A stretch of DNA of 62,847 nucleotides, the filler included, from Stramenopiles sp. TOSAG23-6 (taxonomy: Eukaryota), in NCBI GenBank assembly GCA_900128565.1. It is 38 parts of 38 records of this genome, joined end to end, with 100 filler letters (N's around TTAATTAATTAA, not from the genome) between each part and the next. Parts side by side here need not be neighbours in the genome. Positions count along the whole stretch, not along the records: positions 14,960 to 16,521 come from LT638867.1; 37 more parts are not named here. One strand, written 5' to 3'. Positions within the stretch are counted from its first letter, which is position 1. Every line of letters begins with the position of its first letter. Under the pieces are notes generated by a model. It ran no database searches. It was given only the letters and a program-made list of their open reading frames with translations, and was not told where the DNA came from. Positions 15,018 to 16,225 of the stretch are shown in pieces. The position numbers and the translations under genes are program-made.

Positions 15018-16225
15018 ATACCTTTACACTGGGCCGCGCTACAATGTCACTGGAATGTTATTGATACTCTTCTTCGACATGGTGATGCAAAAGCTCAATT
15101 GGATGCGAAAGATAGCACAAATTGCAACTCGGAAGAATTAGCTCGAGAAAAATCTACTAGAATTGAAGGTGATAAAATGCATAGATACGTACACCTTGCA
15201 GATTTACTTCAAAAAGAACGGAAAAAACTAAATTATTTTAGTTATTTTACTGGGGATCGGAAAGTCAAGTGGTCAATGATGGGTGGAGTAGGTGCTTGGT
15301 TCTTTACATTTCTCGCGCTATTTGAGTGGTCTATTTCCTACTTTCTATTTTTTATGTATATGATTGATTACGTCTCTTATCGTTCAATTGTATTATTGAT
15401 ATTTGGAATTACGTCTTTTCTTCAAATTTATTTTTGGTACAATACTACGTTTAGTGATCCGGGTTACGTCACTGACAAACAAAGAAAATTTTTACCGAAA
15501 TTTGGTAAAAGTATCAGAATCCTTCGGGAGAAATACGAAAAAGCTCTCGAGTGCTCAGCTGATACACATTTACCAATGAATGTCACTGAATCAATAGTAC
15601 GACCTTTTCGTAGTAAACACGACTCAGCGACGGATCGAACAGTTCTTCGATTTGATCATTTTTGTCCATGGATGAATAATGTATTTTTTATTTTTTTTTT
15701 CAATTTATAATTTATTTTCGTACGAAATTTTGTACCTAACGAATTTTAAGTTTTTTTTTCAAATATTTTTCCAAAATACATGCGATTGGACAAAAAAATT
15801 ACTTTTATTTTGTAATGTTTTTATTTATAACTGTACCTCTGTCGTGTTCATGGATGACATTAGGACATACATATCTATTATACGAGAACGGTGGAAGAGG
15901 CAGTACATGGGCTATATCAAGAAAAAATCCTCTCCTCGCTTTTTGGTTTTTTCATTATTTTATATACTTTATATATTCCATATTATTGGGAGCGCAGCAT
16001 TGGCACCTAATATCAAAAAATCTGACTACAAATGAAATGATTAATTCATGGAAATATCCTTATTTCAAAGATAGTACTGGTACATTTAAGAATCCATTTG
16101 ATAAAGGAAAATTTCATAATTTTGTAGATTTTTTTAGTGGTTCAGAAAAAATTGTATTGCCAGCTAAAGAAATATTTGAAGATGATGGAACTATTGAGGT
16201 CTTTGGAAGCGACCGAGTGGTATGA
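15018..16225 (+). CDS. Ankyrin-repeat DHHC palmitoyltransferase (ZDHHC13/17/Akr1-like), 3' part; intron 15681-15781
   Basis: Ankyrin PLHWAA, DPGY, RPFRSKH...RFDHFCPWMNN|AIGQKNY, NLTTNEMIN, NPFDKG. Confidence 0.9.
15681..15781 (+). other. GT-AT intron
   Basis: AAT|GTATTTTT...TTCGTACGAAATTTTGTACCTAAC...CCAAAATACAT|GCG restores CPWMNNAIGQKN. The AG at 15749-15750 would cause a frameshift. Confidence 0.88.

What the first reader, a model, noticed from the sequence alone, without database searches (positions are those of the whole stretch)
15716..15740. Near-invariant palindrome plus extended branch module TTTCGTACGAAA-TTTT-GTACCTAAC
Seen in almost every intron on both strands, always in transcript orientation and ~25-50 nt upstream of the acceptor. 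TTTCGTACGAAA is a perfect 12-bp palindrome. TACCTAAC equals the yeast branch TACTAAC with one extra C. Inference: a long strict branch signal may replace AG recognition, and it predicts a U2 snRNA branch-pairing region reading GUAGGUA rather than GUAGUA, or a dedicated binding factor.
Basis: partly seen in the sequence, partly recalled or inferred. Interest (0 to 1): 0.75.

Follow-up and report, generated by a model that had tools for sequence, protein, structure and literature searches.

The report
Branch-site core of a copied intron
The flagged 25 letters are the middle of a roughly 100-base intron copied into most genes of this marine protist; its second half looks like the branch signal for splicing, while the palindrome in its first half varies freely.

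Summary
The 25-mer is present at 15716-15740 and is far above chance. It is the centre of a ~100-nt intron conserved end to end, in a window built from ~1.5-kb contigs, several of them duplicated. The scan noted this intron family before, on nine other pieces of the same genome.

- **Branch half holds.** CCTAAC has 1 mismatch in 108 cells across 18 full-length copies, against 92 in 368 at other non-T columns. It faces the gene's direction in 37 of 56 copies, opposite in none, with 19 undecidable. It lies 27-55 nt from the 3' end.
- **Palindrome half fails.** It is exact in 8 of 47 copies, its core is the most variable part, and no hairpin is supported.
- **3' ends.** 35 of 38 ends placed by family likeness read AT. 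Three non-AG ends fit protein continuity.
- **Strictness is not required.** Branch-to-end spacing varies, one perfect-module copy ends AG, and diverged copies carry simpler branch motifs.
- **Predicted altered U2: untested.** No U2 or genome was available.
- **No RNA evidence of splicing** was obtained.

The parts
15716..15727 (+). 12-nt palindrome TTTCGTACGAAA, first half of the flagged module
   Evidence: The exact form is in only 8 of 47 distinct modules. Its core is the most variable non-T block of the intron. No stable RNA hairpin and no convincing compensatory change.
15732..15740 (+). GTACCTAAC, presumed branch-site box; presumed branch A at 15739
   Evidence: CCTAAC departs from the consensus in 1 of 108 cells in 18 full-length copies. 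It lies 42 nt before the last intron base of this intron. The branch role is inferred; no lariat data.
15681..15781 (+). The 101-nt intron that holds the module, in a DHHC palmitoyltransferase-like gene; starts GT, ends CAT
   Evidence: The upstream frame matches Pfam DHHC profile positions 10-41 and ends at the last residue before 15681. The downstream frame matches positions 43-131 from its second residue after 15781. One residue fills position 42. Because the exon ends in AT, an AT...AC reading shifted 2 nt left gives the same mRNA.
30628..30733 (+). Family intron with a perfect 25-mer module that ends in CAG
   Evidence: The junction IDTG|RVKE is gap-free against DHX29-like homologues.
30340..30501 (+). 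GT-AG intron without the module: family-like ends, TTTTTAAC 42 nt before the 3' end
   Evidence: With this boundary the alignment to P0041 has no gap at the junction.
30843..30934 (+). Family intron with TTTCATACGAAA-TTTC-GTACCTAAC; ends GT as written, or AT if both boundaries are moved 2 nt left
   Evidence: The junction GRV|RPGK is gap-free. The alternative registers give the same mRNA (read directly from the sequence shown).
31066..31171 (+). Family intron of the GTACGT subfamily, ending CAT
   Evidence: The junction SMG|SPIR is gap-free against three homologues. The next AG downstream would remove six residues that the homologues keep.
30065..30156 (+). Family intron with the variant box ATACCTAAC, ending CAT
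   Evidence: Supported only by an open frame across the junction, not by an aligned homologue.
25974..26066 (-). Family intron in an EF-hand gene; the exon ends AC before GT and the intron ends TAT, with no AG nearby
   Evidence: The downstream exon matches the EF-hand pair profile from its first residue at profile position 16. The upstream exon gave no profile match, so continuity is only partly shown.
26291..26387 (-). Family intron whose box is mutated to GTACCTAAG, with TTTTTAAC about 10 nt downstream
   Evidence: Boundaries were set by family likeness only.
45058..45403 (+). Long intron with five modules, each with exact GTACCTAAC but a different palindrome version
   Evidence: Boundaries were set by family likeness only.

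Best explanation
The 25-mer is the central piece of a roughly 100-nt intron family that behaves like an introner, a small mobile element that lands in genes and is removed as an intron.

Shown here:
- Whole-length conservation across unrelated genes.
- Sense orientation wherever it can be decided.
- A frequent AT just before the GT start that mirrors the AT at the intron's end.
- Very many copies in the DNA run that holds most of the stretch.

Inferred:
- The second half of the module, TACCTAAC with its CTAAC core, is the branch site and is kept by selection for splicing. CTAAC can pair with the ordinary U2 box GUAG around a bulged A, so no changed U2 is required.
- The first half, the palindrome, came along with the element. 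It is free to vary in RNA terms and may matter, if at all, at the DNA level for the element's movement.
- The 3' cut falls at the element's own conserved CAT, usually followed by G, about 27-55 nt after the branch. This points to a spliceosome that accepts U in place of G at the last intron position, not to a branch signal that replaces 3' end recognition.
For: - The module is real and non-random, with 56 distinct contexts.
- The full intron is alignable over 100 columns in 14 seed copies, and 71 distinct profile hits were found.
- In 18 full-length copies the departures from the consensus are: CCTAAC 1 of 108, GTA 5 of 54, 5' end (columns 1-9) 7 of 138, last ten columns 28 of 167, other non-T columns 92 of 368, CGTACG 42 of 108. 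CCTAAC against other columns gives p=9e-11.
- Orientation is 37 sense, 0 antisense, 19 undecided.
- AT precedes the donor in 15 of 29 introns, against a background of 0.108 (p=6e-8).
- In the DNA run X1, 9084 of 99615 contigs lay on one 1558-nt contig, piled on its intron parts. No position of the three GTACCTAAC boxes there shows another letter at 10% of depth or more in any of the 4 runs.
- Splicing at the proposed ends gives one open frame of 296 residues. It aligns to a DHX29-like protein without a gap over four junctions.
- The flagged intron's ends give a continuous DHHC profile.
- Simpler branch motifs occur in diverged copies and in a module-less GT-AG intron.
- In the three two-module introns where one box is spoiled (modules at 2572/2532, 18322/18407 and 35100/35036), the spoiled box is the upstream one in each.
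Against: - No RNA evidence. The few contigs of the three RNA libraries that cover this gene run unspliced from exon into intron, and no clean exon-exon joint was among those listed. DNA carry-over cannot be excluded.
- No lariat data, so the branch A is assumed.
- TA and the extra C before CTAAC are kept more often than an ordinary U2 pairing explains: TACCTAAC is in 31 of the 33 introns with CCTAAC. Two diverged copies keep a pyrimidine at the extra position (TACTTAAC, ATACTTAAT).
- The five modules inside one intron all keep the exact 9-mer. A single used branch site does not explain this.
- The profile search finds copies partly through the module, which may flatter its conservation.
- U2 was never seen.
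Confidence: 0.7

Rival explanations
1. The lineage uses a long, strict branch box UACCUAAC that is read by a U2 snRNA with a matching extra G (GUAGGUA) or by a dedicated branch-binding protein. This tight anchoring is what allows splicing without AG.
For: - TACCTAAC is kept in 31 of 40 introns chosen by their 3' end, and in 31 of the 33 that have CCTAAC.
- GTA before CCTAAC varies less than other non-T columns (5 of 54 against 92 of 368, p=0.009).
- Two diverged copies keep a pyrimidine at the extra position, which a G in U2 could pair with by wobble.
- 35 of 38 3' ends are AT.
- A precedent exists for an snRNA changed to match changed splice signals: U1 in Entamoeba (abstract of bioRxiv 10.1101/2022.06.08.495308).
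Against: - The whole intron is conserved, not only the box.
- ACTAAC, GCTAAC and TTTTTAAC serve in other introns, including one removed GT-AG with homologue support.
- Spacing to the 3' end is loose at 27-55 nt.
- A perfect module occurs with an AG end.
Confidence: 0.12
2. The palindrome is a DNA-level site of the mobile element, for instance the binding site of a dimeric transposase or a recombination point, and has no role in the RNA. This can be true together with the best explanation.
For: - It is a true 12-bp palindrome in the apparent founder form.
- A second palindrome, AAATTCGAATTT or close variants, lies in the 5' half of many copies.
- It is free to decay after insertion, as expected for a site needed only for moving.
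Against: - No transposase gene or autonomous copy was seen in the window.
- No excision footprints or empty sites were examined.
- The palindrome sits in the middle of the element, not at its ends, where most transposases bind.
Confidence: 0.2
3. The palindrome forms an RNA hairpin that presents the branch box or helps to place the acceptor.
For: - The 30-nt module context can fold into a 6-bp stem, GUACGA with UUGUAC, at -4.4 kcal/mol, ending right before CUAAC.
- Pair 4-9 of the palindrome shows 7 double changes that keep pairing.
Against: - The 12-mer alone does not fold (0.0 kcal/mol).
- The mean energy of the 47 25-mers is -1.75 kcal/mol, with a median z of -0.92 against shuffles.
- In the alternative stem, pair 5-20 is intact in only 16 of 47 and pair 8-17 in 24 of 47, with 0 and 1 compensating double changes.
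- The 7 double changes at pair 4-9 are T and A runs growing into the core.
- The exact palindrome is in 8 of 47 copies.
Confidence: 0.05
4. These are minor (U12-type) introns. That class has a long strict branch box and tolerates non-AG ends.
For: - ACCTAAC resembles the U12-type box TCCTTAAC (recalled).
- U12-type introns are known with unusual end letters (recalled).
- The 5' end starts GTAT.
Against: - 0 of 29 donors have ATCC at positions 3-6.
- The branch lies 27-55 nt from the end, whereas the minor-type branch has a tight distance constraint (passage of PMC11347168).
- A long T-rich tract follows the branch.
- No U11, U12, U4atac or U6atac match in the window. This is weak, since the window is a small sample.
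Confidence: 0.03

Closest known systems
Introner elements: MITE-like, intron-generating transposons of Micromonas pusilla, Aureococcus, Symbiodinium, Chrysochromulina and others (passages of PMC9860276, and of the review PMC11282704)
   Same: - Many near-identical short introns in unrelated genes.
- One splice site is carried by the element, and the other coincides with a short duplicated flank.
- AT-rich relative to exons.
- Aquatic protist host.
   Different: - The removable unit ends in AT, not AG, in 35 of 38 copies.
- The duplicated flank is only 2 nt and is seen in 15 of 29 introns.
- No clear terminal inverted repeats were measured here.
- A yeast-like, nearly invariant branch box is part of the element.
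- Empty sites or insertion polymorphism were not examined.
Non-canonical transposon-derived introns of Fritillaria borealis (review PMC11282704, passages; abstract of bioRxiv 10.1101/2025.08.15.670264)
   Same: - Most introns break the GT/AG rule.
- They appear to derive from MITE-like insertions.
- They are removed by what looks like the major spliceosome.
   Different: - There the 5' end is also non-canonical (AG-AC, AG-AT), and the change is tied to duplicated U2AF subunits and snRNA methylation.
- Here the 5' end stays GTATGT or GTACGT and only the last letter differs (CAT for CAG).
- U2AF genes of this organism were not seen.
The yeast branch box TACTAAC pairing with U2 GUAGUA (recalled textbook knowledge; no call)
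   Same: - The same TAC...TAAC frame and the CTAAC core.
- Near-invariance.
- Position tens of bases before the 3' end.
   Different: - One extra C (TACCTAAC). With a standard U2, either only CUA-C pairs or a second bulge is needed.
- Here the invariance may owe much to recent common descent.
U12-type branch box TCCTTAAC (recalled; distance constraint from a passage of PMC11347168)
   Same: - A long, strict, C/T-rich box ending in TAAC.
- Tolerance of non-AG ends.
   Different: - The 5' motif ATCC is absent (0 of 29).
- The distance to the 3' end is 27-55 nt.
- A T-rich tract is present.
Co-evolved U1 snRNA and atypical 5' splice sites in Entamoeba (abstract of bioRxiv 10.1101/2022.06.08.495308)
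   Different: It concerns U1 and the 5' end. No snRNA of the present organism could be examined.

Membership tests
Introner-like (transposon-derived) intron family | Many near-identical copies in unrelated genes | tested here: met
   - 56 distinct module contexts and 71 distinct profile hits.
- Host genes include DHHC, GH31, DHX29-like helicase, an EF-hand protein, prolyl oligopeptidase and an amino-acid transporter.
- 9084 of 99615 contigs of DNA run X1 lie on one 1558-nt contig, mostly on its introns.
Introner-like (transposon-derived) intron family | Copies sit in genes in sense orientation and their removal restores the reading frame | tested here: met
   - 37 sense, 0 antisense, 19 undecided.
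- An open frame of 296 residues after removal of five introns, gap-free against a homologue over four junctions.
- DHHC profile continuity across the flagged intron.
Introner-like (transposon-derived) intron family | Target-site duplication and terminal inverted repeats | tested here: inconclusive
   AT precedes GT in 15 of 29 introns, against a background of 0.108, and AT ends 35 of 38 introns. Two letters are too few for proof. Inverted ends were only eyeballed (GTAT...ATAC) and not tested.
Introner-like (transposon-derived) intron family | Presence/absence differences between strains or relatives, or an autonomous parent element | not testable with these tools
   No genome is held. No relatives were found in the metagenome, genome or viral contig collections: only 3, 1 and 0 matches, and the four found lie in unrelated sequence.
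U2-type branch site | CTAAC / YTRAY core able to pair with U2 around a bulged A | tested here: met
   CTAAC is in 35 of 40 3'-anchored introns. The pairing logic is recalled, not computed.
U2-type branch site | Lies upstream of a pyrimidine tract and the 3' end at a workable distance | tested here: met
   27-55 nt, median 42. T-rich runs follow the box.
U2-type branch site | The lariat forms at the box's A | not testable with these tools
   Only assembled contigs of the RNA runs could be laid, and no lariat or splice joints were obtained.
U12-type (minor) intron | 5' motif [AG]TATCCTT | tested here: not met
   0 of 29 donors have ATCC at positions 3-6. 17 are GTATGT, 11 GTACGT and 1 GTATTT.
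U12-type (minor) intron | Branch box within a short, fixed distance of the 3' end | tested here: not met
   27-55 nt. The constraint itself is taken from a passage of PMC11347168.
Conserved RNA hairpin | Pairing kept through compensating changes; stability above shuffles | tested here: not met
   the 12-mer has an MFE of 0.0; the median z is -0.92; stem pairs are often broken without compensation.

The most novel reading that the evidence does not exclude
This protist's spliceosome reads an eight-letter branch box, UACCUAAC, through a U2 snRNA with one extra G in its otherwise universal branch-binding box, or through an altered SF1-type protein. This firm hold on the branch is what lets it finish splicing at CAU instead of CAG in most of its introns. 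The mobile intron family would have spread because it carries exactly that box.
Probability: 0.1. Interest if true: 0.85.

Novelty: new variant of a known kind. Interest (0 to 1): 0.55.

Why it matters
If RNA confirms it, this organism removes most of its introns at GT...AT. That would be a one-letter departure from a nearly universal rule, carried by a mobile intron that brings its own yeast-like branch box.

Such a family would be a natural series of mutants, with thousands of copies carrying graded changes. It could show which intron letters a spliceosome really needs, how new introns spread, and whether core snRNAs can co-evolve with them.

For annotation, gene finders that insist on AG will mis-model most genes of this lineage.

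This finding adds three points to the earlier notes on the same genome:
- Selection is visible on the branch box.
- Selection is absent on the palindrome.
- The extended box is conserved somewhat beyond what standard U2 pairing explains.

Tried and rejected
- **RNA evidence for the splice ends.** One search found three seawater RNA libraries with small shares of the helicase contig.
  - The RNA contigs pile on the intron repeats. The few that reach exons run on unspliced, and the listed joints link one repeat copy to another.
  - No verdict on splicing follows, and DNA carry-over cannot be excluded.
- **U2 snRNA.**
  - Rfam found nothing in the window at gathering or at E up to 1.
  - No whole genome is held.
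  - An exact scan of metagenome contigs for the predicted U2 box with an extra G gave 0 matches.
  - The same collection holds no real copy of the intron family (3 matches, all in unrelated sequence of 38-44% G+C). Genome contigs gave one match in a Bacteroidales MAG, and viral contigs gave none. The blank for U2 therefore carries no weight.
- **Earlier notes of the scan.** They hold nothing on U2, and no look-alike stretches by sequence.
- **CpG decay as the cause of palindrome variation.** The variable positions are the two CpGs, but CpG observed/expected in the window is 1.0. Hypermutable CpG is not supported; different founder copies are as likely.
- **'First CAT after the branch' as the 3' rule.** It is rejected for intron 22310-22213 (minus strand). 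An earlier CAT is passed over there, and only the family-position CAT keeps the downstream frame (my reading of the sequences).
- **ORF-only search for splice ends.** It was useless because T-rich introns are open in several frames.
- **Literature.** Searches for the motif strings, for introner + stramenopile + non-canonical + branch point and for introner + single-cell + uncultured + heterotrophic + MAST turned up no description of this family. A single-cell genome paper on a marine stramenopile mentions introns only in its methods (PMC3998028, passages). Supplements were not opened.

Full report
**What is at the coordinates.** Positions 15716-15740 read TTTCGTACGAAA, TTTT, GTACCTAAC on the + strand. 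Both halves are far above chance. The palindrome with at most one mismatch occurs 51 times against 0.32 expected, and GTACCTAAC occurs 62 times against 0.12 expected.

The raw counts overstate the case. The window is not a chromosome stretch but about 48 contigs of roughly 1.5 kb, sorted by length and joined by N linkers. Eight of the contigs are identical, and one more occurs twice. After removing duplicates, 56 distinct contexts carry the box. Many contigs break off inside this very sequence, as expected for a repeat that an assembler cannot cross.

**The module is part of something larger.** Lining the copies up shows that the whole intron of about 100 nt is conserved, not just 25 letters:
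- a 5' end GTATGT or GTACGT followed by T runs;
- a second small palindrome around TTCGAA;
- the flagged module;
- a T-rich stretch;
- a conserved tail ending in CAT.

AT stands just before the GT in 15 of 29 introns, against a background of 0.108. AT also ends 35 of 38 introns. This resembles the short duplicated flank of a mobile element.

In the DNA run that holds most of the stretch, 9084 of 99615 contigs lie on one 1558-nt contig of the window, piled on its introns. The family is therefore genome-wide. The scan had already noted the family on nine other pieces of this genome. Those notes are leads, and I re-tested what I use.

**Are they introns, and do they end without AG?**
- *The flagged intron (15681-15781).* The upstream frame matches the Pfam DHHC profile at positions 10-41 and stops at the last residue before the GT. 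The downstream frame matches positions 43-131 from its second residue. Exactly one residue fills position 42.
- *The helicase contig.* Removing five introns gives one open frame of 296 residues.
  - Two of those four introns end in AG: 30340-30501, which has no module, and 30628-30733, which has a perfect module.
  - One ends in AT, or in AC if shifted by two (31066-31171).
  - One ends in GT, or in AT if shifted by two (30843-30934).
- *An EF-hand gene.* Its intron (26066-25974, minus strand) has no AG near its end and no AT before its GT. The downstream exon matches the EF-hand pair profile from its first residue.

Non-AG ends are thus supported by protein continuity at three junctions and partly at a fourth. 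All other 3' ends were placed by likeness to the family only.

RNA gave no verdict. Contigs of three seawater RNA libraries pile on the intron repeats, and the few that reach the exons are unspliced.

**The two halves of the module behave differently.** In 18 full-length distinct copies, departures from the consensus are as follows:

| Block | Departures |
|---|---|
| CCTAAC | 1 of 108 cells |
| GTA before it | 5 of 54 |
| 5' end (columns 1-9) | 7 of 138 |
| Last ten columns | 28 of 167 |
| Other non-T columns | 92 of 368 |
| Palindrome core CGTACG | 42 of 108 |

- The branch-like hexamer is the most constrained block (p=9e-11 against other columns).
- The palindrome core is the least constrained (p=0.007, in the direction of more change).
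- The exact palindrome is in 8 of 47 distinct modules, and the commonest version, TTTCATACGAAA (10 of 47), is not a palindrome.
- Among 40 introns chosen by their 3' end alone, 35 have CTAAC, 33 CCTAAC, 31 TACCTAAC and 26 GTACCTAAC. The palindrome is exact in 3 of the 28 with complete upstream sequence.
- The 12-mer does not fold on its own. An alternative 6-bp stem is weak and is often broken without compensation.
- The variable positions are the two CpGs, but CpG is not depleted in the window. I cannot attribute the variation to CpG decay.

**Is the box the branch site?** This is inferred, from four observations.
- It faces the transcript direction in 37 of 56 cases, with none opposite and 19 undecided.
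- It lies 27-55 nt (median 42) before the 3' end and is followed by T runs.
- Where it is spoiled to CCTAAG, a TTTTTAAC lies about 10 nt downstream.
- In the three introns with two modules of which one is spoiled, the upstream one is spoiled each time.

**Does a long strict box replace AG recognition, and does U2 have to change?**
  - The spacing is loose.
  - 3-10 internal AT and, in 15 of 38 introns, an internal AG are passed over.
  - An earlier CAT is skipped in at least one intron.
  - The end keeps its own CAT-G signature.
  - A perfect module occurs with an AG end.
  - A module-less intron with TTTTTAAC at the same 42-nt distance is removed GT-AG.
  - Diverged copies carry CTTAAC, CTTAAT, CCTAAT, ACTAAC and GCTAAC.
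  - The CTAAC core can pair with a standard U2 (recalled knowledge).
  - TA and the extra C are kept more than neutral columns.
  - Two diverged copies keep a pyrimidine at the extra position.
  - Five modules within one intron all keep the exact 9-mer while their palindromes differ.

The prediction itself could not be tested:
- there is no snRNA in the window and no genome is held;
- the predicted box gave no match in metagenome contigs;
- that collection does not hold this lineage's introns either, so the blank is uninformative.

**Comparison with what is known.** The family works like introner elements (passages of PMC9860276 and PMC11282704). It differs in ending with AT. The nearest cases of wholesale non-canonical splicing are:
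- *Fritillaria*, where both ends changed and U2AF paralogues are implicated (abstract);
- *Amoebophrya* (a passage of the review PMC11282704; the paper itself was seen only in the search listing).

The family is not U12-type. No donor has the ATCC motif (0 of 29), and the branch is too far from the end (constraint from a passage of PMC11347168). A co-evolved snRNA has a precedent for U1 in Entamoeba (abstract).

My searches found no description of this family. Supplements were not read.

**Verdict.**
- The motif's length and strictness are better explained by a recently spread mobile intron than by a new recognition rule.
- The U2 prediction stays open, at about one chance in ten.

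Noticed in passing
window 2836-2972, 17556, 20574, 20726, 23015, 28852, 29137, 29210, 32028-32044, 32274, 45618, 45821, 48857, 49317, 50012: Short runs of the telomere-like repeat CCCTAA (two to three units) lie inside exons, where they read NPNPN or similar, and inside introns. CCCTAACCCTA gives 47 matches against 0.01 expected. About 17 of the places are distinct once duplicate contigs are removed. The origin is unexplained.
   Followed up: partly
window 1-62847: The window is a chain of about 48 contigs of ~1.5 kb, sorted by length and joined by N...TTAATTAATTAA...N linkers. 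Contigs 1664-14859 are eight identical copies, and 38231-39739 equals 39885-41393. The apparent 1662-nt tandem repeat is an artefact of this chaining.
   Followed up: yes
window 20618-20781 (+), inside a minus-strand open frame 19971-21557: Two decayed module look-alikes (boxes ATACCTAAG and GTACCTAAT) lie antisense inside an open frame, where they read SLGIKFGT and SLGTKFGT. Each lies next to a TTAGGG pair. They may be element copies in the wrong orientation that became coding.
   Followed up: no
window 15660-15800: The DHHC-like protein reads DHFC instead of DHHC. Across the flagged intron it has Ala where the profile position after NN usually holds a conserved Cys. This is either a divergent protein or a one-base assembly error next to the junction.
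   Followed up: partly
window 19954-19978 (-) and 61781-61805 (-): Two copies carry TTTCGTACGAAA-TTTC-GTACCTAAC, in which TTTCGTAC occurs twice 12 nt apart. The branch box and the palindrome may be two halves of an old internal duplication.
   Followed up: partly
window 45058-45403 (+): One long intron holds five modules 56-100 nt apart. All five have exact GTACCTAAC, but their palindrome versions differ.
   Followed up: partly
window 51737 (+) and about 28296 (-): Two family members start GC instead of GT (GCACGT, GCATGT).
   Followed up: no
window 29902-31459, runs X4, X5, X9: Seawater RNA libraries hold the intron family at summed depths in the tens of thousands, while the exons of this gene reach at most about 5. 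The few contigs at exon borders are unspliced. The cause could be retained introns, stable excised introns or carry-over DNA.
   Followed up: partly
window 1140-1155, 27000-27015, 31085-31100 and other copies: A second small palindrome centred on TTCGAA (AAATTCGAATTT or variants) lies in the 5' half of many copies, and its CG is often TG.
   Followed up: no
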